A stretch of DNA of 28,355 nucleotides from Candidatus Woesearchaeota archaeon (GTDB lineage Archaea; Nanobdellota; Nanobdellia; SCGC-AAA011-G17; JACPNG01): assembly GCA_964491045.1 (NCBI GenBank), contig CAZBFA010000001.1, positions 1-28,355 of the forward strand. The letters run 5' to 3'. A model generated the notes under the pieces. That model searched no databases and was not told the DNA's origin. It saw only the letters and a program-made list of their open reading frames with translations. Below are positions 11,327 through 27,162 of the stretch, in pieces. A program made the position numbers and the translations under genes. The first letter of the stretch is position 1; each line of letters opens with the position of its first letter.

Positions 11327-14300
11327 GCAAACCACTTGACAAGCCCTTCCTGCTTTTCAGGGTCCTTGCCAAAAATGCTCTCTATTCTTCTCTTGGTTAT
11401 CTGCAAAACCTGGTTTAAGTATGGTGGCAGGGCATATTTTTCAGCAAGCTCCAGGCTGGGCTCAACATATTTTACAATGCTCCCTTCGGCAACTGTAAAA
11501 AGAAGCCTTCCGCTGCATTTCAAGCATCTTCCAGCCAATGGAGGCCTCCTGTATTTTTCATTGCAGTCAACGCATCTGAACTGCTGCTGCGAGAACTGCC
11601 TTAAGTTTCCTTTAATGTCCCTCATGAAATGCCTTTCTATCAGCAGTCTTGCAACATCATTTTCTTCAACACACCTTAATCTTTCAGCTAATTTCATCTG
11701 GCCATTTACCTTGTCCATCATTGTTGGTATTGACTTGTATGCGCTGCACCTTACTCCCGCATTTAAATCATCAGTGTCATGCGTGAATCCAAGGCCTTCA
11801 TATTCCTTGAATGTTCCAAGGTTATCCCCCAGCTGCTCTATCTTGATTTCTTTTGGGCTTTTATATTCCAATGCGGCTTCGTAAAGCTCCAAAGGATATT
11901 TCCAGACAACATCCATGTCAAAGACCATATTGTCAACCTCTTTGGGTATCAGTGTGGACGTTAAAACCAACGGCGCATCCTGGGTAACACCTCTCCTTTT
12001 TGGCAAAAATTTCCTGGAGAAATTAATCAGAGTGTCAAGCAGCAATATCACACAAGCCTCATCTCCGTCACATCTTGTATTAAGAATTTGTTCTCCCCAC
12101 AAAATATTTTTATCTCCTTCATCTTTCCATTCTATTTCTACACAATAAGAGTGCTGAATGTCTCTTATCTTTTCTACTTTTTTTACATAATCAACAACTA
12201 TGTCCCCATAACCTTCAAGAAAAACATGGTTGCCATTATAGGACGTTTTTCTTTGTTCAATCGGTTTCAGCTGACTTAATTTTTTACTTTTTGATTTATC
12301 TGTTAAAATAAAGAGTTTTTTTAGCTTAAATGCGTCTTTTCCATAATAAACTAAATGATGTAAAATATGTTTCTTTGGTTTTTTTGCTAATCTTTTATAA
12401 ATTTCTAGAACAGTCCTGCCTGGCATCCTTAATTTTGTTGAAGAAAATCTTGAAACTGCACCAAATCTGCTTAGCAATAAAGAGATGTCATTCAACAATT
12501 GACGGTTAACTGAATAAAAAACACATGAATTATTCTCTGGAACTACAGTTCCATCGCCATCAAAGAAAGCAGAGACATATGCCTTTATGATATTAGTTGA
12601 AGATCCAAAAAGAAATGGCGGAACTTTCTTGGTTTATGCATTGGAACCAGCATTAAAACAATAATTAAAGATAAGGTAAGGCAATTTATGGCAAATAGAT
12701 ATCTTTGTATTATCTTCTTCCAAGACAGGAGAGAGCCCAAAGACTTTCTTTATTAAGCAAGCTATTCTTCTTTGGATATCGGTGTTTCCTATTCTAAAAC
12801 TAATCTGTGTTACTGTAAATGTTTGTCGAGAGTGCCCTTCCGCCGCATAATAACCAAGAAGCGATGCAAGAGAATTATCTATTTTAAAATGGATATTATA
12901 TCTAACTTTACTGAAAGATGTACCCAGATAAATGTGTTTAGGCAGGTTGTAAGTCGCAAGCTTTAGGTCTACTAGTTTTTTAAAACAGTCAAGCGGCATA
13001 TCAGAATACCAATGATAAAGACTTTTCTTTCCTTTTAATGCCAATAAAGAGATTATCTTTTTTGACCCTAATTTAGAGAGCAGTAATCGAAAAAATTTGT
13101 GCCCGCCGCGTAATCTGATTTTTCGTTGTTCTTTTAGGGGGACATTCTCTGCCAAAGATTTAACTAAATTTATTTGTAGAACAGCATTAATTTTTGGTTT
13201 AAAATTCTCCAATAGCGCAACCTTATCACTTACAGCAGCCATTGAAGCATTTTTTAATCGGAACTTATTTGTATCATCCAAAAACATAAATTTATGGGTA
13301 GGAGTCATAATAAACTGCCTATTTGTTGCAGTAGTTATTTTGATCCATGTTTTATTTTTTGGGCCTTTGATAAAATATTTTACTTTCTTTTCTTTAAAAT
13401 TTTTTGTAAGTGGATCTACCCCATAAACAAAAAGGGATTCTTTATTTTCAATACGCAAGGTACCGGCACCGTCGATGATTTTAGTTTTAGCACCTTTTTG
13501 TATTAAGTCTTCTACATAAGGCCCGATTTCAACATGATTTACCTGTTTATGATTAATATTGTAATAAACAAATTTAGTGGTAGGAAAAACACAGTCTCTC
13601 CTAAGAATGCTGTGCATCAGCGGGTGTGCAAAAAAACCTTGTGTTTTTGAAAAGCCAATTATTCTTGCAACCATTCCTGCTGATGTATGCGGGCTCATTG
13701 CAACAACACAATGCCCGACGAGATCATTTTTATTTTTCAGATTGTAAAAAGGCTCTTGCTTGTACAGGTGAACCAGCAGATCATCCATGAATTTTGAAAC
13801 ACGAAACAATATTTCATCAGCGCCTTCTTCAACGCTTTCCTTGCAGGAAGGCAATATCACATCCTGGCATTTCAGCTCCAGAATCTGCTCTTCAGTCTTA
13901 AGTTCGTTTCCATGAATGTCCCTCATATAGCCAAGCTCTTTTAACTTTTCAATTGATGTTCCTATTTCTTTTGGCTTGAAATGGGTTATTGCCATTTCTG
14001 TCATGTCATACCTTATTGTTCCTTCCCTGTTTACATATAGCCTGTGCTTGCTTCTCAGAATTCCTTTGATTAAGTTTTCAGGTATTGCATCAGGGTTAAA
14101 AACGCCCTTGACGCCTTTTATCATCTCGCCGTATTCAGTAATTCCAATTTCATTCAGGGCTTTTCTATAATAATAGTTTATGTCTATCTCCTGCATCTTG
14201 TGGCTGGCAGATTCATGCATGCTGCATGGTTCTTCATAAGTTTTTTTGCAGTGGTAGCATGCATATCTCTTATCTGTTCTGGCTCCGCATTCCTCGCAGA

Positions 14301-16314
14301 TATTATAGATTGTTTCTTTGCTGCAGGCCTTACAGAGCATCAATGGGAAATCAGAGGCAACTTTGCCTTTTTTCAGCGCCTCCTGCATATTTCTCATTTT
14401 GCCCCCTTCCTTGCCGACAGGAAACAAAACCTGGGGGCTGCCTTTTAACCTTCTTATTTTTGCTTTTTCAGGCCTCCCCATTCTCGCTCCTATGAATGTT
14501 CCTGATTTGTCCCTTATTTTGACTCCTGCAAGCTTGTTAACAATGCTTAAGACCTCTTTGTCATCATCAAAGGTAAATATGTCAAGGTGCCTGAAATGAA
14601 AGATTAGCGATTTTGCATCCTCTCCAGCAATCACAACATTTTCCCTTGCAACAACCCTGTGAGGAATGCCCAAAAGTTCCAGTACCCGTTTAGGATCAAT
14701 AGACACATCAATTGGAACCTTAGCCGGCAGTCTCAAAATTATTTCCTTTTCAGATATCTCTGCAGTCTTGTACCAATTCAGGAAACTTAGAAACTGCTCA
14801 GTGCCTATGTCTTTCCAATGGTATGTATACCTTGGATGCATGGGAACATCAAACTGTATTGCTATCCTGCTTGCGTCTTCAAAACTTAGCTTCTTGTATG
14901 GATTCTCAATTATTTCCTTGACCAAGGTATCATCGCATTTTAACTTTGCCAATTCAGCAGCATGCCATTCTTCGTTGTAGCCGCAGGGCACTAATTTATG
15001 AGCCCTATTGAAAAAATCGCCATAATTTACCAATAAATCACCCAAGAACAATATTTCCTCAATATCGTTTCTTATCTTCATTGCCTGCTCAGCAGTCTCA
15101 ATTAAAATAACCTCTCCGCTGTTCAGTTTCACAATAGGCCCTTCCAGCTTGTCGCATACGCTGAGAACGGTTGACTTCCCGGGCCTTTCTGTCTTGAGCT
15201 GGGTCCCGATTGCAAGGTAATCATCCAGAACAGCCATTGTTGCAGGATGCACTGCGTCAGATGAAAATCCAGATGTTCTTGTCCTTCCATACCTTAATCT
15301 AAATCCCCCAATTGCCATTGGATAAGTCAATATGGGCCTTCCAGCAACTAAATCTTTTATGAAATTGTAATCAGGCATCAGCTTAACATTTTCATCAGCA
15401 GTCTTTTCTTTGCTGGCGCTCGCCCTTATCATCTTTTGCAGCTTGATGAAGTCCTCCAGAAATTTCCAGTGCTCCAGCCCAAAATCATTGCCCCATGATT
15501 TGAGCTGATTCCATAATTTAGGCGCTTTTGCGCACAAGCATTCTCCAAGAACCAGGCAAACCCCGTTCCTTATCCTGTTGGTTTCAATCCTGTCAATATC
15601 CTTGTAATTGCTTACCTCTTTTTCTTCGCTTGGATCGCCGTCAATTTGCACAGGCAGCCTTTCAACCAAAAATTTTGCTTCTTCCTCGCTTGGCAGATAC
15701 TGAAGATTGGTTATCTTCTCATGATAATCATAAAGCTCAGCCACCATTCGTTTCACTTCCATCTCGCTAGGGTCGTAAGCATTTAACCCCATTATGCACC
15801 TCACGTAATCAGCAATCAGCACAGAAACAGCGCCCGCAGTGCCGCCAGCGCTTCTTATGGGGCCAGAATAGAATAAAGCAACATAATCCTTTCCATCTTT
15901 TCTTTTCCTGAATTTTAGCTCAACAAAACCTTCTAGCGGGCTTGCAACAACACCAACAGTTATATATGCAATTCCAACTCGAATTCCAACCTCCATCGCC
16001 TCTTTCTTGCTTGAAAATTGGCAGAATTTTTCTCTTGCAGTTTCTTCCGCAAGCTTCAATGCAACTCTCCAGTCCTGCACGCCGTATATTTTCTCTAATT
16101 CCATCAATCGCTCAATGATGTTGCTGTCTTTTATCTGCGGCGCAACAATTGATATTATTCCAACAACTCTTTCGGCCATATTTTTTGCAAGCGGTATCTC
16201 AACAGCAGGTATGGGGTCATGCCCGATGGCTCTTGCTTTTCTCGCGGCATCATAGGCTTTTGCTATATTCCTGTTTATCTCATCAAAATATTCTTTCATT
16301 TTCTCAATCTTCAC
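11314..16314 (-). CDS. polC: DNA polymerase D large subunit DP2, containing an intein with one in-frame TAA (12634-12636)
   Basis: GPIRSAGGTA, GGFRLRYGR, FIGARMGRPEKAK, Zn-finger Cys clusters, catalytic CDGDE, C-terminal CxxC...CxxC and PIP-like QEGLVKWF. Track ORFs 12634..16314 and 11314..12498 share a frame and the 45 codons between them are open. Exteins are 907 + 252 aa. Confidence 0.93.
12073..13593 (-). mobile_element. Intein with LAGLIDADG homing endonuclease at RRD|CDGDE of DP2 (507 codons including the TAA)
   Basis: Starts CVFPTT (block A), TPTH (block B), LLGYYAAEG (block C), AFFDGDG (block E), SYCVEIE (block F), ends EQILNTR. Visibly more AT-rich than the flanking extein DNA. Confidence 0.9.
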
Positions 16315-17962
16315 CAGAAAAATTCATGATTTTCACTTCCCTGGTTTTTAAATTCAATATTGGAACTCTTCCCGGATTTGGATTATTCCCCGTCTTTTCC
16401 TGAAATGAAGTTTTTCCCTGAAAGCAGCTGCAATTTATCAATAGGACATTATTATAATTAACAACATCAGATCTATGCATCTCTCCAGATACAAGTATAT
16501 CAGGCAGCTTGTCTATGAAAAAAGGATCTTCTTCAGTATTTGGCATGTAAACGGTTGATGAATGTGTTGGCGCAAGATGCCTTTTCTGCAGCAAAAATTT
16601 TATCACAGTTGCAGGATTGTCCCTTGCTGAAGCCTGCCTCAACGAATCAACTTCGTCAATGTAATAATGATAGCTTGCCCCATGGTACATTAGAACATTG
16701 AATCCCTCAAAATCTTTTTTGGAATGTATGTTAACCATGCAGGGATTGCTGACCATAATCAGGTTTGGCAGCGCATACAATGCGTGCGCAAATTCCTTGT
16801 CCAATGGGGGCTGTGGTTCGGCTGCCCTTATTGAATCATGCTGCCCTGGAGAGATTATTATTTTGATGTCTTTTCTTATTAGGCTTATGCATTCGGCGGC
16901 GGCATTGTACTGCTGCATTATGTCGCGGAAAAGCAGTTCTTTTTCCTGCCCGGGATAAACTCCAACACCCTCAACAATATCACCGATAATAAACAAATAC
17001 TTCACTTTTGAAGACACTCTTTTTTGCAGGAAACTTCCGCTGTTTCCATTCAGCCAGTCAATAAATTCCAGGAATTCTTTTTTCATGAACAGCTTGCTGC
17101 CAAAATGAAGGTCGCTTATGAAAGCAACGCATGCCTCATCATCGCATTTCTTCAGCTCCTTTGTAAGAGGCACATCGGGGAATATTATCTGTGTTGCAAA
17201 AATTACTCTTCCCCCATAAACGCCAGTAATTCCTAGCACTTCATCGCACACAACATTTTTTCCTGCCTCAGCGGCTTTTCCCTCTTTATTTATTAAAACC
17301 TCTATTGTTCCTGTCGGGTCTTCTACTTTCAGGATTATATTCCCATTTTTTGTAGTCCTCTTGTCATGCACAATCCCTATCAATGCAACTGCTTCTTTTT
17401 CCTGCTTGCCTGCTATCCTGTTTATCGAAACAAGTCCCTGCAGCTCTTGCCTTGATTGCAATAGGTTTTTGATCAGATTATACCTGAGCTTGAAATATTC
17501 AACAAAGTCTTCCACCCCTCTTTTTTTGGGCTCATCTTTATATTCTTTAAGCACGATCACGCTGCTGTAATTTTCATTGGTCTTCTCTTCTTTGATATTA
17601 ACTTTCTCTTCATGCTTTACTTCTTCCAGCATCTTGTCAAGCTTTTTTTTCTCGCCAGTATGGTAACCCAATAGGTCTAGAAATACCTTGTAAGCTTCAT
17701 CATTTTTCCCTTTTTCAATCAGCACCCGTGCCTTTTCAAATTCATTCCAGTTGATGTCAATTTTTGCAAGATTATCTTCTTGCAATTTTGGCATTACCTT
17801 TATCAGGTCCTGGTTTAGCACAGACAATCGGCCATTCAGCTCAGCATCTTTTTTCAAGGAAATTAATAGCTCGGAGGAATCCTTCCCGTCAAACTCATCC
17901 GCAATGTCTGGTGACAGCAAAAATCCGTTTTCAATGAATAGTTTTATGTTTTCTTTGTTCAT
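16304..17962 (-). CDS. polB: DNA polymerase D small subunit DP1 (proofreading exonuclease subunit; not a family-B polymerase)
   Basis: OB domain (EDPTG), ISDLHFGS, GDIVEG.G.YPGQ, PGQHD..R.AEPQP, YHGAS, LLQKRHLAPTH. Overlaps cdc6 (ATGA) and DP2. Confidence 0.93.
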   Translation of the reverse strand: MNKENIKLFIENGFLLSPDIADEFDGKDSSELLISLKKDAELNGRLSVLNQDLIKVMPKLQEDNLAKIDINWNEFEKARVLIEKGKNDEAYKVFLDLLGYHTGEKKKLDKMLEEVKHEEKVNIKEEKTNENYSSVIVLKEYKDEPKKRGVEDFVEYFKLRYNLIKNLLQSRQELQGLVSINRIAGKQEKEAVALIGIVHDKRTTKNGNIILKVEDPTGTIEVLINKEGKAAEAGKNVVCDEVLGITGVYGGRVIFATQIIFPDVPLTKELKKCDDEACVAFISDLHFGSKLFMKKEFLEFIDWLNGNSGSFLQKRVSSKVKYLFIIGDIVEGVGVYPGQEKELLFRDIMQQYNAAAECISLIRKDIKIIISPGQHDSIRAAEPQPPLDKEFAHALYALPNLIMVSNPCMVNIHSKKDFEGFNVLMYHGASYHYYIDEVDSLRQASARDNPATVIKFLLQKRHLAPTHSSTVYMPNTEEDPFFIDKLPDILVSGEMHRSDVVNYNNVLLINCSCFQGKTSFQEKTGNNPNPGRVPILNLKTREVKIMNFSGED

Positions 17963-19197
17963 ACTGCAAGGCCCTCTTTTAGCAGGTCATCTACATTTTT
18001 TAGTATCTCTTCAGGCATTGCCAGGCAGACTTCTCGCGTCCTTCCATACCTCCCTTTGCTTATCACTTTTGTAGTTATTATGCCCAGCATTTCAAGCTCA
18101 GAGATAATGTCGCATAACCTTCTTTGTGTCAGGGGCCTTAACCCTACTTTGAAGCATAACTCCTTGTACACTTCATATATCTCACCAGTAAAAATTGGCA
18201 TGTTGTTTGTTATCTTGTTGTGTATGCGTATTATGGAATAAAGAGCAAGCTTGCATTGTTTTGGCTGCGTGCTTATTATATTTGTGAATAAATCTGTCTC
18301 TATCTTGTCTTCTGCAGTATCCAGGTCACCCACTTTTATGGCATTTTTTCCCCTCCTTTCTGCAATCTCACCAGCAACTCTTAAAAGGTCCAATGCTCTT
18401 CTTGCATCGCCATGCTCTTTTGCAGCATAGGCAGCGCATTTTTCAATAACACCTTCTTCCAGCACTCCTTCTTTAAATGCTGTTTTCACTCTCTGCCTTA
18501 ATATGTCCTGAATCTGCAATGCGTTGTAAGATGGGAATGTTACCTCTTCCTCACCCAGGCTGCTTTTTACTCTTGGATCAAGGCTTTGCGTAAAAACAAG
18601 GTTATTTGAAATTCCTATCAATGATATCTCTGAACTTTTTAATTCAGAATTTAATCTTGTAAGATTGTAAAGTATGCCATCCCCTATCTTTTGCCCAAGC
18701 TGATCTATCTCATCCAGGATTATTATGAGCAGAACCTTGTCTCGCTCTATTGCCTTAATGAACATCTTGTAAATTTCAACAGTAGGAAGCCCTGTTGCAG
18801 GTATTTCCTCGCCAAACTCGCTTGCTAATTGCGCAATCAGCCTGTATTCTGTATCAGCTATTCTTTTTAGCTTGCAATTAAGATAAATAACTTTGAACTT
18901 GCGGTATCCTGCTTTTTCTAATTTTGAGGAATTTTTTTCTGCAGTTGAAATCATATCATTGCATATATTCTGTATTGTCAGGCTTTTTCCAGTGCCTGTT
19001 TGGCCATAAATGAAAACATTTGAGGGCTTTTCTCCTTTTATTGCAGGAGCCATGATGCTGTTAAGCTGTTGTATCTGCTCTTCCCTGTGCAGGATTGTTT
19101 TCGGGGTATAATTTGACTGCAATACTCTTTTATTAATAAACAAAGGCTCTTGTTTTAAATAGTTTTCAAAAAAATTAGTCAGCCCTTTTTGCCCCAT
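17959..19197 (-). CDS. cdc6: Orc1/Cdc6 replication initiator
   Basis: Y.P..ILHRE.QI, GQTGTGKS (Walker A), ILDEID, RVKSSL, F.SY...QI.DIL..R, HGDARRALDLLR and C-terminal wHTH ending GRYGRTR. Confidence 0.96.
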   Translation of the reverse strand: MGQKGLTNFFENYLKQEPLFINKRVLQSNYTPKTILHREEQIQQLNSIMAPAIKGEKPSNVFIYGQTGTGKSLTIQNICNDMISTAEKNSSKLEKAGYRKFKVIYLNCKLKRIADTEYRLIAQLASEFGEEIPATGLPTVEIYKMFIKAIERDKVLLIIILDEIDQLGQKIGDGILYNLTRLNSELKSSEISLIGISNNLVFTQSLDPRVKSSLGEEEVTFPSYNALQIQDILRQRVKTAFKEGVLEEGVIEKCAAYAAKEHGDARRALDLLRVAGEIAERRGKNAIKVGDLDTAEDKIETDLFTNIISTQPKQCKLALYSIIRIHNKITNNMPIFTGEIYEVYKELCFKVGLRPLTQRRLCDIISELEMLGIITTKVISKGRYGRTREVCLAMPEEILKNVDDLLKEGLAV

Positions 19198-19265
19198 TTC
19201 ACCCTCTTGAATTGACTAATGAAATTTTATATTTAAACATTCTGATAGTATAATATATCATACCT

Positions 19266-19287
19266 ACACCTTCATTTCCTATGGAAG
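19266..19287 (-). promoter_or_regulatory. ORB-like box 1 (CTTCCATAGGAAATGAAGGTGT)
   Basis: Fits the TTCC-N3-GGAAA...AAGG ORB pattern; lies just upstream of the cdc6 TATA (19237-19230). Confidence 0.75.
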
Positions 19288-19588
19288 ATCTTATTTATGT
19301 TTTCAGCTAATAAACTTTGTTCACTACTTAAAAAAGTCATAAAAAATAACCCTTAAACAGTTAATATTATAAAAACATGGCAAAAAAACGAACAAAACAG
19401 CTAATACAGAATAATAACAAAGGCAAATTAAAAAAGATGAACAAATAGTAAGTAAAATATAAAAATATCATTATATTATATATGATTTGGCATTTAACAT
19501 AAAAATCAGCCTTTATATTAAATATTAAGTGTATATAGGGCATAATAAACTAATCAGATAACTCCAAACGAAACAATGGTGTGACATC

Positions 19589-19605
19589 CTTCCATCAGAA
19601 ATGAA
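19589..19605 (+). promoter_or_regulatory. ORB-like box 2 (CTTCCATCAGAAATGAA), no G-string
   Basis: 15/17 identical to box 1, in inverted orientation across the AT-rich stretch. Confidence 0.6.
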
Positions 19606-19664
19606 ATCAAATAATCTTGTTTTTTTGCACAATCTTTATAACTTTCTATGCTATTGCTATGCTT

Positions 19665-20282
19665 ATGGAAAAAAACATAATTACATTGGCAGAAGAATAT
19701 TGCAGGCATTTTCATAAGCAGCAGAAAAGAAAAGGGGGCAACCAGGAGCCATATGAATCGCATCCTTTTGCCGTTCGTGATATCTTGGTTAAGTATGGCT
19801 ATGATGATCCAGAAACACAGGCAATAGCATTGCTGCATGATACAGTCGAAGACACTTCATTGGAAAAGAACAAGGGTGAAATTGAAAAAAGATTTGGCGC
19901 TGTAGTATATGAGGGTGTTTATGCTCTTTCAAACAACACTATTGGGAAGCATAACAAAAGATTATCCCCGTTATTCGCTAGTTTGGGCATAGAATTTACC
20001 ATCCATAATAGGAAATTGACCTCACAAGCATATAAATTAAGGATTCTCTTCAGCAGAAACAGCATCAAAAGAGTGAAAATAGCAGACATGATTCATAATA
20101 CAAAAGTATTGCCAGACTTAAGCTTGACTGGCATTGAAAGAAAATTACAGGATGCTGAAACTTTTTATATCCCTCTTGGAATGTGCGTTGCTCCGCTGAT
20201 GGTGCAGGAATTGGCAGCAAATATAATCAATTACAAGGCATCAGAGCATTATAAAAAATTTTTCGGTGTTGAAGACCATTAA
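19665..20282 (+). CDS. HD-domain hydrolase, RelA/SpoT-hydrolase (Mesh1/SAH)-like
   Basis: H..Q.RK....PY.SHP..V, ALLHDTVEDT and VKIADMIHN. TATA at 19635-19642 supports ATG 19665. Confidence 0.85.
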   Translation: MEKNIITLAEEYCRHFHKQQKRKGGNQEPYESHPFAVRDILVKYGYDDPETQAIALLHDTVEDTSLEKNKGEIEKRFGAVVYEGVYALSNNTIGKHNKRLSPLFASLGIEFTIHNRKLTSQAYKLRILFSRNSIKRVKIADMIHNTKVLPDLSLTGIERKLQDAETFYIPLGMCVAPLMVQELAANIINYKASEHYKKFFGVEDH

Positions 20283-20305
20283 GTAAGATTATATAAATAA
20301 CAAAC

Positions 20306-21202
20306 CTATTTTTTCTCTTTTAAAATATCCTTGAATGTATCAACAGCATGCCTTAAATCTGTTGCAACAGCATCAGCATTATTTTTATGGGAAAACATTA
20401 CACTAGATTTTTCTGCAACTATCTGGTTGACATACTTTAGTGCATTTGAAATTCTTGCGCCCCCAATCCAACCAAGCTCTTTATTTATTTTGCCGAATGC
20501 ATAAATAACTATCCCAACCAGCTCGCCATTTGCATTTATTATTGCGCCACCGCTCTGCCCGCATTTGCCTCTTACATCTGTTTCAAACAGATCATGTATT
20601 TTATAATCACTTCCTTTAAATTTACAGCGCAATCGTGATGCAGTTATAATGCCTATGCTGTTTCTTACATGCCCATCTCTGTATCCAATGACATTTACTT
20701 CACAGCCTTTTTTTAATGCATCTTTTCTGTCCACTAATGCTTTTATTGGCGTTGGATGCAATGAGTGTTTTTTTGCTTTTAAGATTGCTAGGTCCGTATT
20801 CCTATTGTACCATATTCCATTCTGCCTGCTTACAATATATTCCTTTTTCTCACCAGTCTTTATTATTATTTTTCCATTAGGAGGTATATCTTCAACAACA
20901 TGATAAGCAGTTATGACATACCCATCAGTTGTTATCATCAATCCAGAACCATTGTAAAGGTCCTCTTTGTTTTTGTCAACGATCTTTACAAGCACAATAT
21001 TCTTTGTTATCTCTTCCAAAGACTTTTCCACAGAAATGCCCCTTGCTTCATTTGGTGTATTTGCAAATGCATACAATGCGGCAAGAGAGCAGGCTTCCTC
21101 CTGTTCAGGCACCTTGACATTTGAGTCATAACCGCAGTAAGAAGCTAGATTTGAGCCTATAACTTTTCCCCCGGCCTTTAATATATCTAGTAGCTTTGAC
21201 AT
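20306..21202 (-). CDS. Trypsin-like (S1C-type, PDZ-less) serine protease
   Basis: GSGLMITTDGYVITAYHVV, DLAILK and GQSGGAIINANGELVGI give a complete His/Asp/Ser triad. TATA at 21232-21225 supports ATG 21202. Confidence 0.88.
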   Translation of the reverse strand: MSKLLDILKAGGKVIGSNLASYCGYDSNVKVPEQEEACSLAALYAFANTPNEARGISVEKSLEEITKNIVLVKIVDKNKEDLYNGSGLMITTDGYVITAYHVVEDIPPNGKIIIKTGEKKEYIVSRQNGIWYNRNTDLAILKAKKHSLHPTPIKALVDRKDALKKGCEVNVIGYRDGHVRNSIGIITASRLRCKFKGSDYKIHDLFETDVRGKCGQSGGAIINANGELVGIVIYAFGKINKELGWIGGARISNALKYVNQIVAEKSSVMFSHKNNADAVATDLRHAVDTFKDILKEKK

Positions 21203-21346
21203 GGGTTTTATGATCACTGTAAAATATATAAAGGGATACGTTAATTTGCATGCTGAAGGTTAAAATAAGCATTCCATTATAATCAATTATTAACCAGAAA
21301 ATTTATAAATAAGCTTCGTATAAAAGAGATGAGATAAAAGGCAAAA

Positions 21347-21610
21347 ATGGGAGACGAAGAAAAAAGATCGGCAAAACACCTTATGGGAAAGGTGGTTGTA
21401 ACGCGTTCTGGAAAGCGTTTTGGTGAAGTTTCAAACCTCTCTTTTGAGACAAGAACAGGCGAGCTCATGCATGTGGTTCTTAAAAATCCAACAACCTTTG
21501 CTCAGTCGCTGGAGCTTGAAAAAGATGCAAGAAATAACCTTCTGATACCATTTTCATCTGTTGTTGCTGTTGGCGACTTTATAGTCATTGCAGAAGAAGA
21601 GATAATCTAG
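21347..21610 (+). CDS. PRC-barrel domain protein (CdpB-like), second paralogue
   Basis: LMGKVVVTRSGKRFGEVSNLSFETRTGELMHVVL...LLIPFSSVVAVGDFIVI. Confidence 0.88.
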   Translation: MGDEEKRSAKHLMGKVVVTRSGKRFGEVSNLSFETRTGELMHVVLKNPTTFAQSLELEKDARNNLLIPFSSVVAVGDFIVIAEEEII

Positions 21611-21814
21611 ATTCCTTCTTTAAGATTTTTAGCAAACGTTTTGCTTTATTTGAATAATTTCTTTTCTGCTGCATCATGATTGAATATTTCATATCTCTTA
21701 GTTAATCTTAAGCCATATAGTCTGTTAATTCCTGTTTGCCCTCTTTTATTAAGAGAACTAGCCAGAAATCTAGCGAACTTCTAAATTAAGAAGTCCTTTA
21801 TCGATTAAGTTCGC

Positions 21815-21836
21815 AACCACCCTTTAGGGTGGAGTT
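21815..21836. repeat. Hairpin CCACCC-TTTA-GGGTGG resembling an IS200/IS605-type subterminal palindrome (orphan)
   Basis: Perfect 6-bp GC-rich stem with a TTTA loop in an AT-rich 300-bp intergenic region. No transposase in the window. Confidence 0.4.
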
Positions 21837-21909
21837 GAATGGCGTACCACGAGAATATTTTTCTAGTAATGATTTAGAATGAGTATATGCACAGATTTAT
21901 AACATTTGC

Positions 21910-22650
21910 TTATTCTCTTTGCAAGAATATTCCAACCAGTTCTTTTTTGTTTAAGCTATAAAGATCATTGACTTTCTTGCGGCCCTTGGTCAAATAAATG
22001 CCTTTTATAATCTCTTTATTGCAGTCATTTTCCGTCACACCGCAGATCTCTCTTGCATGTTGGCAAACAGGATTTATCAGTGTTTCTTCAACAAATAGGG
22101 CATCACCCTCTATCAAAGAATTATATGCAGCAAAATGCATCCCTTTTTGGGTTATAATTGTCCTCTTGAAAATGCTGTTTCCATATATGCTTTTGATTAT
22201 GCTTAAAAATCCATGGTTGAACTCTGGATTATTCACAAACTGGCATCTGTGCGCCAGTTCATGGCTTACTACAGACATCAAGAGGTGGTCTAATGCATTT
22301 TCACAAATCTGTTTGCCCCTGCGCTCATTATGGTCTGCAATCATTTTTCTGATGTTTTCTGGCGCCACCAATAAAGTTTCTGTTATTGGCACATATTTTC
22401 CAAGGACTTGCGATGCGCATTCTCGCATTAAGTCATGCTCTATCCTTTCACCATCATTTTTCGGCTCTGTCTCAATGCAGAGATCATCATAAATAAGTTT
22501 ATTCCCGTATGTCCACATGCCTTCTGGCGAAACTACCATAACTTTCAGGGTGCCAAGGTTCACTTTCCACAAGGTCAGCTTTTCTACTTCTGGCGTTATT
22601 TTTTCAACAAGCCTTTCAATAGAATTATTATCAATAATCTCCATCCCCAA
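21910..22650 (-). CDS. Zincin-type metalloprotease (DUF2342-like)
   Basis: VSHELAHRCQF with downstream LIEGDA (third Zn ligand). Confidence 0.7.
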   Translation of the reverse strand: MGMEIIDNNSIERLVEKITPEVEKLTLWKVNLGTLKVMVVSPEGMWTYGNKLIYDDLCIETEPKNDGERIEHDLMRECASQVLGKYVPITETLLVAPENIRKMIADHNERRGKQICENALDHLLMSVVSHELAHRCQFVNNPEFNHGFLSIIKSIYGNSIFKRTIITQKGMHFAAYNSLIEGDALFVEETLINPVCQHAREICGVTENDCNKEIIKGIYLTKGRKKVNDLYSLNKKELVGIFLQRE

Positions 22651-22693
22651 TCAGAATTCAGAAAAACTTATAAATTTATTGCAGATTAACAAG

Positions 22694-24355
22694 TTACATC
22701 TTTTCTGGGGCATCAATGCCAAGAAGATTCAGTCCGTTTTTGATTACCTGATTTGTTGCAATGACCAAAGACAAGCGGGCTTTTGTTATTTCCCTGTTGT
22801 CCGTTATGCATTGGCATTTGTGGTAGAACTCACTGAAGACCTGGGCTAACTGGTGCAGGTAAATTGCTATCAAATAAGGCTTTAAATCGGCAGTTGCTTT
22901 GAAAACAACTTCTGGAAAAAGATACAGCTTGTTGACAAGGTTTAATTCCTGCGGCAACGCGAGGAGCCTGTAATTTGGGTTCACAGGATTTACTTTGGCC
23001 TTTCTTAATATTGAGCAGGCTCTTGCATGGGCATATTGTATATACGGCGCGGTTTCGCCTTCAAAAGATAGTGCTGAATCCCAATCAAAGATTATATTCT
23101 TTTCAGGAGATATCTTAAGCATAGAATATTTGACTGCGCCTATCCCAATCTCTGCTGCAATGTTCTTGATGTTTTTTGCTTTTCTTCTTTTGAGCTCTTT
23201 TTCTGCCTTCTTCAATGCCTCATTTATGAAGTCATTTAACAGCACTAAATTCCCCTCCCTGGTTGACATCTTGCCTTGATCTGCAAGAAGGACATGCGCA
23301 AAATGTATTGCAGTGGGCGCCTGTTGTTTTAGCAATGACAATGATGCTTTGATTTGCTGAAAATATAGCTTTTGATCCTCACCCAGAATGAGAATATTAT
23401 TGTTTTTGGCCCGTTTTATCTTGTCTAGGGTATACATTATATCCCTCAGCCCATATAAAGAAGTGCCATTGCTTCTTGTAAGCACAAAATAAGGCTCTTT
23501 CATTGGCAGGTTGAACTCTGTTAAGTCAAGCACTTTCCTATTTTCTGCATCAGTCATAAGGTGTTTTGTCTTCTCCAATTTTGACAGTATTTCTTTCATC
23601 TTCTTGTCAAAAAGGTATTTTGATTCATAGTCAAAGAAATCATAATCAATGCCCAGCTTTGTCAACACTTCCAGCTGCCCCTTAATGCATATATCAACAA
23701 CATTCCTGAATTTTTTGACAGTCTCCCTGTCACCATCTTCAAATTTCTTAAGCAGCAGGAACACCTCTGTCTCAAGCTTCTTGCTTTTTTTCAGCTTTTT
23801 ATAGGTTGCAGAATATATATTGAGCAGGCTTTTGAAATTAACTGATTTGTTGCCTATGCCCAAAACAAGAAGGGCTATCTGTTTTCCAACATCATTAATA
23901 AAATAATGCACTTCTGTCTTGTAGCCCTGGAATTTCAATATTCTTGCTATTGAATCGCCTATTATTGCGCTTCTTGCCCTTCCTACATGAGGCTCTGCGT
24001 TGGGGTTTATGCTGGTATGCTCTACTAATGCCGTTTTTCCCTTGCCAATGAAAGAAGAGCCATATTTGTCCTTTTCTTTTGATATTGTTTTCAGTGTAAT
24101 CTCTGCCAGTTTTGACTTATTGATAAAGAAATTCAGATAAGGGCCTCTTGGGACTATTGATTCGATGAGGTCATTAGGCTTTAATTTCAATGACAGGTCT
24201 AAAGCAATTTCATATGGGCTTTTTTGCTGTTGCTTTGCTAGAAGAAAACATGGGAATGCAAAATCACCAAAATCAGGATTTGGCGGTATTTCTAGCGATA
24301 TATTCTTTTGTTTTGTTTCTTTCTTTAATGCCTTTATAATTTCTCGCTCAAACAT
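22694..24355 (-). CDS. argS: Arginyl-tRNA synthetase
   Basis: FGDFAFPCF, GPYLNF, SINPNAEPHVGRAR (HIGH), NDVGKQ, RSNGTSLY..RDI, KMSTREG, GETAPYIQYAHAR and DALR-type C-terminus. Confidence 0.96.
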   Translation of the reverse strand: MFEREIIKALKKETKQKNISLEIPPNPDFGDFAFPCFLLAKQQQKSPYEIALDLSLKLKPNDLIESIVPRGPYLNFFINKSKLAEITLKTISKEKDKYGSSFIGKGKTALVEHTSINPNAEPHVGRARSAIIGDSIARILKFQGYKTEVHYFINDVGKQIALLVLGIGNKSVNFKSLLNIYSATYKKLKKSKKLETEVFLLLKKFEDGDRETVKKFRNVVDICIKGQLEVLTKLGIDYDFFDYESKYLFDKKMKEILSKLEKTKHLMTDAENRKVLDLTEFNLPMKEPYFVLTRSNGTSLYGLRDIMYTLDKIKRAKNNNILILGEDQKLYFQQIKASLSLLKQQAPTAIHFAHVLLADQGKMSTREGNLVLLNDFINEALKKAEKELKRRKAKNIKNIAAEIGIGAVKYSMLKISPEKNIIFDWDSALSFEGETAPYIQYAHARACSILRKAKVNPVNPNYRLLALPQELNLVNKLYLFPEVVFKATADLKPYLIAIYLHQLAQVFSEFYHKCQCITDNREITKARLSLVIATNQVIKNGLNLLGIDAPEKM

Positions 24356-24396
24356 AAAAATTAAAGGTAGCAGATTGTATTTAAGGCTTATTACAA

Positions 24397-24411
24397 GTTA
24401 TACGGTATAAC
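24397..24411. promoter_or_regulatory. Perfect palindrome GTTATAC-G-GTATAAC, putative operator
   Basis: 7-1-7 inverted repeat between the divergent TATA boxes of argS (24384-24378) and the wHTH gene (24428-24435). Confidence 0.55.
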
Positions 24412-24456
24412 GCAAAAGAAGAAAAGCTTAAATAAATCAAAGCTATCTTCAATTTT

Positions 24457-24723
24457 GTGGTAAAATTAGCCAAAAGAACAGTTGATTTGCTAAAGGATGA
24501 TGTTGTTAACATCCTGTATGAAAATGCGCTTAAACCATTGTTTACTAATGAAATAGCCATGCTTTTGCGAAGAGATAATGAGTTTACCAAGAGGTTATTG
24601 CTGGACCTTAAGGGAATGGGTCTTGTTGAAGAGGTCAAGTTAAACAAAAGGAAAAAGCAATATATTCGAAGGATAAGGTGGAAAATAGAAAAAGAAGTAC
24701 TGAAAAAATTTGATGGGAGATAG
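24457..24723 (+). CDS. Small basic winged-helix DNA-binding protein
   Basis: 88 aa; LFTNEIAMLLRRDNEFTKRLLLDLKGMGLVEEV fits a wHTH. GTG start about 25 nt after a TATA. Confidence 0.7.
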   Translation: MVKLAKRTVDLLKDDVVNILYENALKPLFTNEIAMLLRRDNEFTKRLLLDLKGMGLVEEVKLNKRKKQYIRRIRWKIEKEVLKKFDGR

Positions 24724-24783
24724 CCTTAAACCTAGCAATACTAGCACAATAACCTTTAAATAACCATATTTGCCCACAAGTTC

Positions 24784-25218
24784 ATGCCAATCGTAGGTTT
24801 TAATTTTACAAAATTAACTGCAGAACGCAAGAAAGACCAGATTAAAGGAGATGTTAAGGTAAAGAATGATTTAGTTCTACAGTCTTTAACTACAACAGAA
24901 GTTGAATTGGGCGGCAAAAAACAAAACGTGCTGAAGCTAACTTTCGACTTTTTGATAGAGCACCAGCCAGGCCTGGGTAACATGATTTTAAGCGGTTTTG
25001 TGTTATTCTTGGAAGCTCCAGAGAATACAAAAGCCATCTTGGATACATGGAAAAAAGACAAGAAAATGTCTCCTCAGCTTGCAACCGTGCTTATTAATGC
25101 AATTCTCACAAGGGTGCATATTAGGGCATTGGAACTAGCGCAATCTGTTAATTTGCCTCTTCATATTAAATTGCCAATTGTTTTGCCAAAGCAGGATCTT
25201 AAGAATTATATAGGCTAA
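24784..25218 (+). CDS. Conserved archaeal hypothetical protein (possible SecB-like fold)
   Basis: 144 aa, MPIVGFNFTK...LPxHIxLP. The fold call is inferred from the beta-strand then C-terminal helix pattern. TATA at 24755-24762. Confidence 0.65.
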   Translation: MPIVGFNFTKLTAERKKDQIKGDVKVKNDLVLQSLTTTEVELGGKKQNVLKLTFDFLIEHQPGLGNMILSGFVLFLEAPENTKAILDTWKKDKKMSPQLATVLINAILTRVHIRALELAQSVNLPLHIKLPIVLPKQDLKNYIG

Positions 25219-25238
25219 GCACTCATTTATGCAGTTAT

Positions 25239-25299
25239 GCACATCCTAAGCACACTCTGAGCACACTCTGAGCACACTCTGAGCACATCCTAAGCACAT
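25239..25299 (+). repeat. Tandem 11-bp direct-repeat array
   Basis: GCACATCCTAA, GCACACTCTGA x3, GCACATCCTAA, then partial GCACAT, ending 3 nt before ATG 25303. Confidence 0.9.
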
Positions 25300-25510
25300 A
25301 AAATGTGGAAAGACGTACTATCCCTCAAAAATGACCTTAGGCTTTCTTTTTCCAAGGTTAAAGAACATATAACCTCATTAGAAGACCAGGTGAAAGCACT
25401 AAAAGAACAGGTTAAAACCCTTCAAAACGCTTTGGAAAGCTCAAACTCTCAAAATATGCCTGAATTGCCACCTTTGCCCATTCCTGTGCCAGAATCTCCT
25501 AAAGAAGTAA

Positions 25511-25531
25511 GTTCCATGGAAATGAAGGGGT
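25511..25531 (+). promoter_or_regulatory. ORB-like box 3 inside coding sequence (GTTCCATGGAAATGAAGGGGT)
   Basis: Shares TTCCAT..GGAAATGAAGG with box 1 and has a full G-string, but a 2-nt rather than 3-nt TTCC/GGAA spacer. Confidence 0.6.
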
Positions 25532-25533
25532 CT

Positions 25534-25584
25534 ATTCATTCATTCATTCATTCAAACATTCATTCATTCAACAAACAAGCATTC
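25534..25584 (+). repeat. Tetranucleotide microsatellite (ATTC)5-AAAC-(ATTC)3-AAC-AAAC-AAGC-ATTC
   Basis: Read directly; it starts 2 nt after the G-string of box 3. Confidence 0.85.
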
Positions 25585-25924
25585 AACAACTGCTCTCAAC
25601 CATTACAAAACAAGAGCTTCTGGTGCTTTTGACTATAGTTCAATTAGAAGAGGAACTTGGCACTATAACTTACTCTATATTGTCTGATAAGCTTAAACTC
25701 TCACAGGGGTGCATTAGGGGGTATATAACCTCATTAATGCGCAAAGGAGCCCCAATTTATAAAGAGAAATACAATAATAAGATAACGCTCATAAAAACAA
25801 CCTCTCATTTTAAAGCTACAGACAAACAAGCTCTCATTAGCTCATTTTACAGCATTGATCCTTATCAAAAGCGTCTTGATTAACTCTCACTTTTATGCAA
25901 AATAATCAAAAATGCCATAAAATC

Positions 25925-26530
25925 TCATTTTTGGGCCTTTTTTACTAGGGCATTTCTCTCCTTTAAGATCTCATTTTTCAGTTTTTCATCAATAAAAAAG
26001 CGTTTTTTCCCGTTTCTTTCAATATATTCCATCAATAATCCCTCATTTTTTTGTTTTATATTGTTTACTTGCCCTCTTATTGTTGATTTGTCTCTCCCCA
26101 CCATGATGCTCAAGTCATCATAAGTTAATTTCATTTCATTATTCAGCAGAATGCTTATTATGGCTCGTTCCATAGGGGTTAGATTTTTAGTCCATTTATC
26201 CCCCCTTCTGCCTGTTTGGACAACAACAGATGGTTGTTTTAAACGGCTGTCCGTTTGTGTTTGTCCAAACGGCTGTCCAAACACCCTCTCGTCTTTCTGG
26301 TTTGCCCCGAAAGCCTCGTTGAACAATAACTCTAATTGATCAATTCTCTCCTGTAATCTGAATAATTCAGCATTTTTGCTCCTATGACCATCATGTAATT
26401 TGTCTATTTTTGAATTAATATGTGTAATATCTGTTTTAACATTTAGAAATGACCTGTGCAAAGAAGAGTGTATTCTGTCAAATTTCTCGCTTAACTCCTC
26501 ATACTCTCTTTTTTTCACCCAAAAAAACAT
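25925..26530 (-). CDS. Coiled-coil/low-complexity linker/C-terminal HTH protein
   Basis: N-terminal heptads (SFLNVKTDITHINSKID), Q/T/G-rich linker, then LTPMERAIISILL..EMKLTYDDLSIMVGRDKSTIRGQVNNIKQK...KKRFFI. Confidence 0.8.
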   Translation of the reverse strand: MFFWVKKREYEELSEKFDRIHSSLHRSFLNVKTDITHINSKIDKLHDGHRSKNAELFRLQERIDQLELLFNEAFGANQKDERVFGQPFGQTQTDSRLKQPSVVVQTGRRGDKWTKNLTPMERAIISILLNNEMKLTYDDLSIMVGRDKSTIRGQVNNIKQKNEGLLMEYIERNGKKRFFIDEKLKNEILKERNALVKKAQK

Positions 26531-26604
26531 ACATATTTAAAGGTGCAACTATTTAATAAGCCTTATGGTGATTTAGGCTCAAAAAGCCTTGTTTTAATTA
26601 AAAA

Positions 26605-27162
26605 ATGAATAAAACATACCTATGGATAGGGGCTGTTCTGACCTTTACTATAGCGATTGTTTTGATTTATGTTGGTTTAATCATTTTTGGTGGTGTAAGC
26701 TTATGGCCTGCTTGTACCCAAGTAGACTGTGGTGATGTGGTCACTTTTAACCTTCCTGGTCTTTTGCTACCAAGAGATTTTATAGTGTCTGTCAATGGAT
26801 TGTCTTATGATAGCTGTTTAGATGGTTATTTTAAAGGGCCGAACATCGTTCAAAAGAGGTTTAATGTAGACACAGCTTCTCGAAATCCATCTTGGCGGCT
26901 TATAATATATCCAAAAGGTTTGGATAATACAAAAGGAGACATCACTAGCATTAACTTTGATGCAAGGCGAAATGGCGAGTTAATGAAAAGCATATATTTA
27001 ATTATTGAAAAGCGCCCTGATTGTTCAAAACCAGAAACAAGTGTCTTGTTAAAGAAAAGCATCCCTATAAAATATACCAAAATTAAACCTAATAAAGGCC
27101 TGTTTTGTGGTCCAACATGTCGCGTATCCAGAATCACAATATCTGATTTTCTAGAAAAATAA
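26605..27162 (+). CDS. Hypothetical protein with N-terminal membrane anchor and Cys-containing extracellular domain
   Basis: Hydrophobic residues about 5-32, then six Cys. No family recognised. Confidence 0.65.
   Translation: MNKTYLWIGAVLTFTIAIVLIYVGLIIFGGVSLWPACTQVDCGDVVTFNLPGLLLPRDFIVSVNGLSYDSCLDGYFKGPNIVQKRFNVDTASRNPSWRLIIYPKGLDNTKGDITSINFDARRNGELMKSIYLIIEKRPDCSKPETSVLLKKSIPIKYTKIKPNKGLFCGPTCRVSRITISDFLEK

What the first reader, a model, noticed from the sequence alone, without database searches (positions are those of the whole stretch)
24397..26530. Candidate undescribed origin/segregation module: wHTH + conserved protein + iterons + two convergent coiled-coil-HTH genes with embedded DNA sites
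Seen within 2.1 kb: a palindrome, a wHTH gene, a 144-aa conserved gene, five 11-bp repeats, gene A (coiled coil, linker with ORB box and (ATTC)n, HTH) and convergent gene B with the same architecture and DNA repeats in its linker. It lies about 5 kb from cdc6-PolD. Inference: A and B are distant paralogues forming an elongated DNA-binding heteromer acting on sites within and beside their own genes, as a second Cdc6-dependent origin, origin-licensing switch or centromere-like system. No ParA/SMC motor is in the window.
Basis: inference. Interest (0 to 1): 0.8.

Follow-up and report, generated by a model that had tools for sequence, protein, structure and literature searches.

The report
Initiator box written inside origin-linked genes
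Next to the replication origin of a tiny-genome (DPANN) archaeon sit two sister DNA-binding-protein genes whose flexible middle parts are also DNA binding sites, one of them a full copy of the replication initiator's recognition box, which points to an undescribed layer of control at archaeal origins.

Summary
Every listed feature is present at the stated coordinates. The finding omits one point: gene A is two ORFs here. One base is missing from the dyad spacer of the embedded origin recognition box (ORB), and this frameshifts the gene.

The module (small wHTH, SecB-fold protein, convergent paralogues A and B) is conserved across the order. It lies 5-16 kb from cdc6 there, and directly beside oriC-cdc6 in a second order. 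Homologues without the box are not linked to cdc6.

The box in A is conserved as DNA. It has the same 21 bp in more than 50 orthologues, uses rare codons, and is read in all three frames. It matches the box upstream of cdc6. Short repeats follow it and are usually echoed upstream of A's promoter. B's linker holds a different motif, in two frames and both orientations.

Best reading: an outlying Orc1/Cdc6 site plus arrays for the module's own wHTH proteins, coupling A/B expression and local DNA architecture to the initiator. A self-standing second origin is unlikely, because there is one box, no inverted partner and no AT-rich element. A centromere-like role stays open. No binding was tested.

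This scan has found the same module on other genomes, with similar verdicts. I found no paper describing it.

The parts
24397..24411 (.). Palindrome (7-nt arms, 1-nt centre) in the divergent ArgRS / wHTH promoter region. Its half-site CGGTATAAC / TTCGGTTAAA is conserved in relatives.
24457..24723 (+). Small winged-helix protein gene (88 aa). In relatives it is the divergent partner of ArgRS or sits directly upstream of A.
24784..25218 (+). 144-aa conserved protein with a SecB-like chaperone fold.
   Evidence: synteny
25239..25298 (+). Upstream (U) array: five 11-bp repeats, GCACAYYCTRA, ending 4 nt before the ATG of A.
   Evidence: relatives
25303..25632 (+). Gene A, N-terminal ORF (109 aa): coiled coil with the family motif SFSKVKEH. 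It runs out of frame through the box and repeats to a stop.
25511..25531 (+). Origin recognition box inside A: TTCC/GGAA dyad plus G-string. Its dyad spacer is one base shorter than in every orthologue examined, and this is the site of the frameshift.
25534..25590 (+). Downstream (D) array: (ATTC)n tetranucleotide repeats and degenerate units starting 2 nt after the G-string.
25503..25883 (+). Gene A, C-terminal frame (126 codons open): the box read as GNEGV, then linker and winged helix.
25925..26530 (-). Gene B (201 aa), paralogue of A: helix 2-79, disordered 80-118, MarR-like winged helix 119-200.
26212..26285 (.). Motif cluster in the B linker: three copies of GTCCAAAC in both orientations, two of them 12 bp apart.
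19266..19287 (-). cdc6-proximal ORB of the presumed oriC, 92 nt upstream of the cdc6 ATG. It is identical to the box in A at 19 of 20 aligned bases.
19589..19609 (+). Degenerate inverted ORB partner on the far side of the AT-rich stretch 19290-19588.
17959..19197 (-). orc1/cdc6 initiator gene.

Best explanation
The stretch is the local copy of an origin-linked gene module of DPANN (Nanobdellota / Woesearchaeota-type) archaea. Its parts are a small wHTH protein, a SecB-fold protein, and two convergent paralogous genes, A and B. A and B encode coiled-coil / disordered linker / MarR-like winged-helix proteins.

SHOWN:
- The linker-coding DNA of both genes is overprinted with DNA-level elements.
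- In A the element is a complete origin recognition box of the same type as the one in front of cdc6. A short-repeat array that differs between lineages follows it, and in most relatives the same array is echoed just upstream of A's promoter.
- In B the element is an array of a different motif.

INFERRED:
- Orc1/Cdc6 binds the intragenic box as a single, polar, outlying initiator site of the oriC neighbourhood, not as a self-standing origin.
- The module's own winged-helix proteins bind the arrays in and beside their own genes. A/B expression and the local nucleoprotein structure are then tied to initiator occupancy.
- The disordered linker tolerates the DNA constraint, and the adjacent repeats let the reading frame be re-phased.

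In this genome A is interrupted. One base is missing from the box's dyad spacer, which both shortens the box and frameshifts the gene.
For: DNA-level conservation of the box:
- 17 of 18 A orthologues found through the neighbouring B protein carry GTTCCANNGGAAATNANGGGGT.
- The codons are frozen at TCC, GGA, AAT and GGG. In this genome TCC is 8% of Ser codons and GGG 16% of Gly codons.
- 37 orthologues read the box as S-S-x-G-N-x-G-V.
- Four genomes (G001, G019, G025, G051) read the same DNA as VPQE(M/I/R)xGS inside intact full-length genes.
- In G025 and G051 a second copy overlaps the stop codon of the upstream gene.

Same element as the origin box:
- The window box equals the cdc6-proximal box at 19 of 20 aligned bases.
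- Relatives carry TTCCANNGGAAATNNNGGTGT 73-126 nt upstream of cdc6.
- TTCC and GAA are the invariant ORB core, and a single ORB binds Cdc6 well (PMC1904270).

Origin linkage:
- A/B lie 5-16 kb from cdc6 on one contig in at least 23 relatives.
- In family f50, which belongs to another order, the layout is cdc6 / intergenic gap / SecB-like gene / (wHTH in one of the three genomes) / A with box / B.
- Homologues without the box, in other orders, lie 180-400 kb from cdc6.

Arrays:
- The upstream and intragenic arrays share 10-29-nt strings in 10 of 15 genomes, against a control median of 7.
- The B motif GT[CT]CAAAC occurs 42 times in 6.9 kb of B genes (24 in frame 0, 12 in frame 2, 6 inverted). 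It occurs 9 times in the 145 kb outside.
- A B subgroup with a different recognition helix carries a different motif, which includes a 12-bp palindrome.

Paralogy and fold.

Precedent: an ORB cluster inside the dp1 coding region is bound by Cdc6 in Pyrococcus.
Against: - No binding of any protein to any of these sites was measured.
- In the window itself the upstream 11-bp array and the intragenic (ATTC)n array share no string (longest common substring 5 nt).
- The repeat units differ widely between lineages (TTCA, CTCA, CGCA, ACAA, GACA), while A's recognition helix changes little. That fits poorly with sequence-specific binding by A.
- The arrays were not found at the cdc6 origin.
- The box's polarity is confounded with the orientation of gene A.
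- Relatives are not independent, so the linkage counts overstate the support.
- Two fragmented genomes have A with its box but no detectable Cdc6 winged-helix domain.
- The frameshift rests on an assembly with about 6x depth. Independent Logan contigs break exactly at both linker arrays.
Confidence: 0.55

Rival explanations
1. Centromere-like partition site. A and/or B are centromere-binding proteins. They coat the phased repeat arrays in and beside their own genes next to the origin, as ParB does at parS within spo0J or ParR at the 11-bp iterons of parC. A motor or tether is encoded elsewhere.
For: - Many arrays have a 10-12-bp period.
- The B motif cluster is unique in the 915-kb genome.
- The position near the origin is conserved.
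- The upstream and intragenic arrays flank A's promoter.
- A long coiled coil plus a winged helix suits bridging.
- ParA-like and SMC genes exist elsewhere in the genome.
Against: - No motor gene is linked in any of about 50 loci.
- Many A arrays are plain 4-bp microsatellites rather than helically phased sites.
- This reading does not explain the initiator box.
- No binding data exist.
Confidence: 0.15
2. Independent second replication origin (oriC2) that fires at the A/B locus.
For: - It holds the best consensus ORB in the genome.
- Repeat arrays lie beside the box.
- There is a second Orc1/Cdc6 paralogue on contig C5.
Against: - There is only one box. No inverted partner was found within 2 mismatches in the window.
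- There is no AT-rich unwinding stretch: GC 0.35-0.38 against 0.32 at the cdc6 origin.
- Both inverted boxes are needed at Sulfolobus oriC1 (PMC12141716).
- In family f50 the box lies only 1.6-2.7 kb from cdc6.
- Where two boxes occur (family f10) they are direct repeats, not inverted.
Confidence: 0.1
3. Contingency (phase-variable) gene. Slippage of the tetranucleotide tract switches full-length A on and off, and the window shows an OFF state.
For: - Tetranucleotide tracts of 4-10 units lie in the coding sequence of most orthologues.
- Here, gaining one unit or losing two would fuse the two frames.
- Four genomes read the box in another frame and regain the HTH frame after the repeats. Re-phasing has therefore happened in evolution.
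Against: - The break is in the box's spacer, not in the repeat tract.
- More than 50 other orthologues are intact, among them six metagenome contigs. The nearest one has 80% nucleotide identity and a tract of the same length.
- No read-level length variation could be seen.
Confidence: 0.08
4. Ordinary protein motif. The box is only the codons of a conserved SSxGNxGV peptide, the repeats are a low-complexity linker, and the likeness to an ORB is chance.
For: - The peptide is conserved in 37 orthologues.
- The linker is predicted to be disordered.
Against: - The same DNA is read in three frames, partly outside any gene.
- Rare codons are frozen.
- The box matches the cdc6-proximal box at 19 of 20 bases.
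- Array periods of 10 and 11 bp cannot come from peptide repeats.
- The B motif occurs in two frames and both orientations.
Confidence: 0.03

Closest known systems
ORB3 / mini-ORB cluster inside the dp1 (PolD small subunit) gene of Pyrococcus and Thermococcus (Matsunaga et al. 2007, PMC1904270)
   Same: Initiator boxes lie inside a protein-coding region a few kb from oriC-cdc6 and are conserved across an order. In Pyrococcus they are bound by Cdc6 in vivo and in vitro, and their function is unknown.
   Different: - Here the host gene encodes a DNA-binding protein, and the box sits in its disordered linker.
- It is a single full box followed by a lineage-specific repeat array that is echoed at the gene's promoter.
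- A paralogous neighbour carries a second kind of embedded array.
- Binding was not tested here.
Canonical archaeal oriC: inverted ORBs flanking an AT-rich unwinding element beside orc1/cdc6 (Sulfolobus oriC1, Pyrococcus oriC)
   Same: The same box type (TTCC/GGAA dyad plus G-string). The window has such an origin at 19266-19609.
   Different: The A/B locus has one box, no inverted partner and no AT-rich element, and it is coding.
Haloarchaeal oapABC cluster (origin-associated proteins), transcribed divergently from the origin-linked orc gene (PMC7002104)
   Same: A conserved small gene cluster on the side of the origin opposite the initiator gene. In family f50 the layout is cdc6 / origin / module.
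   Different: - Pfam and NCBIfam scans returned only weak generic wHTH, HTH and coiled-coil hits. The Oap sequences themselves were not compared.
- Embedded boxes are not reported for oapABC.
Centromeres that lie in or at the genes of their binding proteins: parS within spo0J/parB, the 11-bp iterons of R1 parC bound by ParR, the 12-bp tubC iterons bound by the winged-helix TubR (from my own knowledge of these systems)
   Same: Arrays of 10-12-bp repeats lie in or flank the promoter or gene of a small DNA-binding protein, near the origin.
   Different: No linked NTPase motor. Many arrays are 4-bp microsatellites. An initiator box is part of the element.
UBP / ucm of Sulfolobus oriC1 (Dhanaraju et al. 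2025, PMC12141716)
   Same: The idea of a lineage-restricted accessory DNA-binding protein acting at an archaeal origin beside Orc1. The authors ask whether other lineages have analogues.
   Different: UBP is a 111-aa nucleoid-type protein that binds a motif inside the unwinding element. There is no sequence or architectural likeness to A/B.

Membership tests
Archaeal origin recognition box (Orc1/Cdc6 site) | TTCC ... GGAA dyad core | tested here: met
   The window has TTCCATGGAA at 25512-25521. Relatives have TTCCANNGGAA. The core is as given in PMC1904270. The window's spacer is one base short.
Archaeal origin recognition box (Orc1/Cdc6 site) | G-rich string a fixed distance after the dyad | tested here: met
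   GGGGT at 25527-25531. It is nearly invariant in the orthologues found independently through B, where 16 of 17 read GGGG.
Archaeal origin recognition box (Orc1/Cdc6 site) | Same sequence class as the boxes at the genome's own cdc6-adjacent origin | tested here: met
   19 of 20 aligned bases match the box at 19266-19287. Relatives' cdc6-upstream boxes share the consensus.
Archaeal origin recognition box (Orc1/Cdc6 site) | Bound by Orc1/Cdc6 | not testable with these tools
   Needs EMSA, DAP-seq or ChIP.
Self-standing archaeal replication origin | Two or more boxes in inverted orientation flanking an AT-rich unwinding element | tested here: not met
   One box, with no partner within 2 mismatches. 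GC is 0.35-0.38. Family f10 has two boxes, but as direct repeats.
Partition centromere with its binding protein (ParB/parS, ParR/parC, TubR/tubC type) | Array of repeated sites at or in the gene of a DNA-binding protein | tested here: met
Partition centromere with its binding protein (ParB/parS, ParR/parC, TubR/tubC type) | Linked NTPase motor gene | tested here: not met
   None in the window or in about 50 related loci. ParA-like genes lie on other contigs.
Partition centromere with its binding protein (ParB/parS, ParR/parC, TubR/tubC type) | The protein binds its array | not testable with these tools
   Only indirect evidence: B's recognition helix and B's motif change together once.
MarR-like winged-helix DNA-binding domain (C-terminal part of A and B) | Winged-helix fold | tested here: met
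   In the B model, residues 119-200 have pLDDT 85-95. The top Foldseek hits are MepR/MarR, E 5e-5. Pfam HTH_11 is below its cut-off.
SecB-like chaperones (the 144-aa protein) | Four-stranded sheet plus two helices, SecB fold over the full length | tested here: met
   Model pLDDT 85. The top 19 PDB hits are SecB or Rv1957, TM 0.5-0.6, E down to 2e-3. No Pfam hit. Oligomer state and client binding were not tested.
Simple-sequence contingency locus (phase variation) | Repeat tract in the reading frame whose length differs within or between populations and sets the frame | tested here: inconclusive
   The tract is present and the frame has been re-phased in four genomes. But the break here is not in the tract, and all other orthologues are intact. 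Reads were not informative.
Haloarchaeal oapABC origin-associated cluster | Sequence homology to OapA, OapB or OapC | not tested
   Only generic library scans were run.

The most novel reading that the evidence does not exclude
The box-plus-array element and the A/B proteins form one origin-proximal nucleoprotein machine. Orc1/Cdc6 sits on the intragenic box and A/B bridge the matched arrays. Together they act as the chromosome's licensing switch or centromere in these motor-poor, reduced genomes. Coding sequence and cis-element are overprinted, and the adjacent microsatellite serves to re-phase, and occasionally silence, the gene.
Probability: 0.25. Interest if true: 0.85.

Novelty: new variant of a known kind. 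Interest (0 to 1): 0.7.

Why it matters
- Replication control in DPANN archaea is essentially unstudied. In the papers I could search, only UBP in Sulfolobales turned up as a characterised accessory origin-binding protein.
- This module gives concrete, testable candidates: one DNA box, two array types and four small proteins. It could show how reduced archaeal genomes couple initiation to gene expression or segregation.
- It is also a clear natural case of a protein-binding DNA site kept intact in all three reading frames of a gene. That matters for gene annotation, because frameshift "errors" and assembly breaks cluster here.
- It also matters for understanding how disordered linkers can host cis-elements.

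Tried and rejected
- Complex prediction: the A N-terminal helix with the B N-terminal helix gave no answer (score 0.01). This is evidence neither for nor against binding.
- Reads: only Logan contigs of a 2017 groundwater metagenome at about 6x depth were available. They break at 25468-25948 and 26222-26502, so the missing base could not be checked.
- Other assemblies: a metagenome scan that allowed a 1- or 2-base spacer found six contigs, all with 2 bases.
- Rfam: no RNA family in 19000-27000 at E up to 0.1.
- Known protein families: PDB sequence search and Pfam/NCBIfam gave only weak generic wHTH, HTH or coiled-coil hits for the wHTH protein, A and B. For the 144-aa protein, Pfam gave only weak DUF hits and NCBIfam none.
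- The A arrays are not shared with the cdc6-upstream region.
- My first idea, a frameshift inside (ATTC)n, was rejected once orthologues showed that the break is in the box.
- Co-loss of Cdc6 and A: family f7 (two near-closed genomes) lacks both A and a Cdc6 winged-helix domain. But two fragmented genomes keep A without a detectable Cdc6 winged-helix domain, so I do not rely on this.
- The 12-bp perfect inverted repeat flanking the module (24382-24393 / 26554-26565) is probably just similar promoter elements. By my own rough estimate the chance expectation is about 0.2.
Full report
THE OBSERVATION

The window is the first 28,355 bases of contig C1 of a 915-kb, 86%-complete assembly. The gene order around the finding is as follows:
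- ArgRS, 22694-24355 (-)
- an 88-aa winged-helix ORF, 24457-24723 (+)
- a 144-aa ORF, 24784-25218 (+)
- gene A, 25303-25883 (+)
- gene B, 25925-26530 (-)

The DNA features are also present:
- The palindrome is at 24397-24411.
- Five 11-bp repeats lie at 25239-25298.
- An (ATTC) tract of 9.2 copies lies at 25534-25570.
- cdc6, PolD DP1 and DP2 lie at 17959-19197 and downstream.
- No ParA or SMC gene is in the window.

One thing is missing from the finding: A is two ORFs. The coiled-coil part stops at 25632. The HTH part is in another frame, open from 25503.

WHERE GENE A IS BROKEN

I first suspected the tetranucleotide tract. Orthologues show otherwise.
- In relatives the sequence before the repeats is GTTCCANNGGAAATNANGGGGT, read as S-S-x-G-N-x-G-V.
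- The window has the same box with one base fewer between TTCCA and GGAAAT, at 25511-25531.
- Upstream of that point the gene is in the coiled-coil frame. From the box onward the conserved peptide and the winged helix are in the other frame.
- Among more than 50 boxes examined, only the window has the short spacer.
- The examined boxes include six metagenome contigs. One of them is 80% identical in DNA to the window's gene A and encodes an intact 197-aa open frame.
- Logan contigs of the source metagenome have about 6x depth and break exactly at the two linker regions. The missing base therefore could not be verified.

THE BOX IS A DNA ELEMENT, NOT A PEPTIDE MOTIF

- Of 18 A orthologues found through the neighbouring B protein, that is, independently of the box, 17 carry it.
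- The codons are frozen at TCC, GGA, AAT and GGG. In this genome TCC is 8% of Ser codons and GGG 16% of Gly codons.
- In G001, G019, G025 and G051 the same DNA is read in another frame, as VPQE(M/I/R)xGS, inside intact full-length genes.
- In G025 and G051 a second copy 335 bp upstream overlaps the stop codon of the preceding gene.
- The exact core occurs once in this genome. Its best one-mismatch match is 92 nt upstream of cdc6.
- With flanks, the two sites agree at 19 of 20 aligned bases.
- Relatives carry the same consensus 73-126 nt upstream of cdc6, often with an inverted partner 250-400 nt away.
- Across 61 relatives the core gives 48 hits in 40 genomes, against 5 for the reversed control. 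Most hits are single and lie inside gene A.
- The TTCC and GAA core and the high affinity of a single full ORB for Cdc6 are documented for Pyrococcus (PMC1904270).

LINKAGE TO THE ORIGIN

- The window's presumed oriC is at 19266-19609. It has two inverted boxes around the AT-richest stretch of the window.
- A/B lie on the same contig as cdc6, 5-16 kb away, in at least 23 relatives.
- In family f50, which belongs to another order, the layout is contiguous: cdc6, a 250-920-bp gap, the SecB-like gene, a small wHTH-like ORF (in one of the three genomes), A with its box, and convergent B.
- The A family is found in 27 of 27 good genomes of the order and in 129 of 151 across the class. It has 1031 clusters in the 1.84-billion-protein library.
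- Outside these two orders the homologues are shorter and lack both box and repeats. In five near-closed genomes they are not near the main cdc6 gene: 183-400 kb away in four, and on a different contig in the fifth.
- This is effectively one evolutionary contrast, so it is suggestive rather than statistical.
- The G-string end of the box always points away from cdc6. That orientation is confounded with the orientation of gene A.

THE REPEAT ARRAYS

- Directly after the G-string every lineage has short repeats: TTCA, CTCA, CGCA, ATCA, ACAA, CAAA or GACA units, or 10-12-bp units. The 10- and 11-bp periods cannot arise from peptide repeats.
- In 10 of 15 genomes the stretch upstream of A's promoter shares 10-29-nt strings with the intragenic array of the same genome, against a control median of 7.
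- In family f10 the upstream copy also includes the box.
- The window is an exception. Its 11-bp upstream array resembles that of its nearest relative in the genome search set (G008), not its own (ATTC)n array.
- The arrays were not found at the cdc6 origin.

GENE B

- A and B are paralogues end to end (hhalign 97.8%, E 7.7e-13).
- The B model has a helix at 2-79, a disordered stretch at 80-118 and a MarR-like winged helix at 119-200.
- The linker DNA holds GT[CT]CAAAC 42 times in 6.9 kb of B genes: 24 as V-Q-T, 12 in another frame as S-K-Q, and 6 inverted. The 145 kb outside holds 9 copies.
- In this genome the three clustered copies are the only cluster.
- A B subgroup with a different recognition helix (TVRRH instead of STIRGQ) carries a different motif that includes the palindrome CGTTCATGAACG.
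- Family f50 keeps both the STIRGQ helix and the GTYCAAACA array.
- Helix and motif therefore change together, but only once.

THE OTHER TWO GENES

- The 144-aa protein has a SecB fold: pLDDT 85, and the top 19 PDB hits are SecB or the SecB-like Rv1957, TM 0.5-0.6.
- It is adjacent to A or ArgRS in nearly all loci. A chaperone for the disordered linkers is a guess only.
- The small wHTH gene keeps company with the module in several gene orders.
- In the window, the wHTH-ArgRS pair is inverted relative to its relatives.
- Its promoter region holds a conserved TTCGGT(A/T)(T/A)AA motif. The window's palindrome is an elaboration of this motif.

READING

- Shown: an initiator-type box and two kinds of repeat array are maintained as DNA inside and beside two paralogous DNA-binding-protein genes that travel with the origin.
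- Inferred: Orc1/Cdc6 binds the box as an outlying single site, and the module's winged-helix proteins bind the arrays. A/B expression and local DNA architecture are thereby tied to the initiator.
- A self-standing second origin is unlikely: one box, no inverted partner, no AT-rich element, and direct rather than inverted boxes where two exist. Both inverted boxes are needed at Sulfolobus oriC1.
- A centromere-like role remains open but lacks a linked motor.
- Phase variation is not supported as the main function. However, the repeats have re-phased the gene in four lineages, and one added unit would repair the window's copy.

COMPARISON WITH WHAT IS KNOWN

- The nearest described case is the ORB cluster inside dp1 of Thermococcales.
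- The haloarchaeal oapABC cluster is a positional analogue.
- UBP/ucm is a conceptual one.
- Searches for ORB with DPANN, or Woesearchaeota with origin terms, found no description of this module.
- Earlier follow-ups of this scan reached similar conclusions on other genomes.
  - the three-frame evidence;
  - the contiguous cdc6-module layout in a second order;
  - the absence of cdc6 linkage for homologues without the box;
  - the matching of upstream and intragenic arrays;
  - the finding that the window's copy is uniquely shortened by one base.

Noticed in passing
window 11314-12498 and 12634-16314 (-): The PolD large subunit DP2 is split into two ORFs at an intein-like insertion. The catalytic domain is divided between them.
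   Followed up: no
G000 contigs C4:60, C20:23, C159:192, C19:2651: The dyad and first half of the cdc6-proximal box (TTCCATAGGAAATGAAGGT) recur within a roughly 45-nt conserved leader. This leader lies directly upstream of the ATG of four paralogous genes, three of them at contig starts.
   Followed up: partly
G000 contig C7:8886 (locus L035): A third full ORB with a G-rich tail sits next to a scaffold gap, at the 5' end of a 360-aa ORF with no Pfam family (residues 84-360 scanned). The neighbours are small Cys-rich ORFs. It may be a mobile element or a second origin.
   Followed up: partly
loci L028, L029 (G049, G022; family f7): These near-closed genomes lack gene A and any Cdc6 winged-helix domain. 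Between the SecB-like gene and B lies about 700 bp of non-coding DNA with at least 7 dispersed AACTCTCACTTT repeats.
   Followed up: partly
loci L013-L019, L024 (next to B): A XerA-type tyrosine recombinase gene lies beside B in at least 8 relatives (Phage_integrase E 2e-48 and 8e-42 for the two scanned by Pfam; the others identified by eye). In this genome it is on contig C80.
   Followed up: partly
window 24784-25218: A SecB-fold protein in an archaeon, conserved across Nanobdellota / Woesearchaeota clusters and usually just downstream of ArgRS.
   Followed up: partly
window 22694-24723: The divergent wHTH-ArgRS pair is inverted as a unit relative to relatives. There the order is wHTH(-) ArgRS(+) p144 A B.
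   Followed up: no
window 24382-24393 and 26554-26565: A perfect 12-bp inverted repeat brackets the whole module. Both arms lie in promoter regions, so it is probably a shared promoter element.
   Followed up: no
proteins P0010, P0030: Some A homologues carry 150-200-residue acidic insertions in the linker after the box and repeats.
   Followed up: no
locus L129 (G037): A second ORB-like box lies about 150 nt beyond the stop of gene A, towards or inside the convergent neighbour.
   Followed up: no
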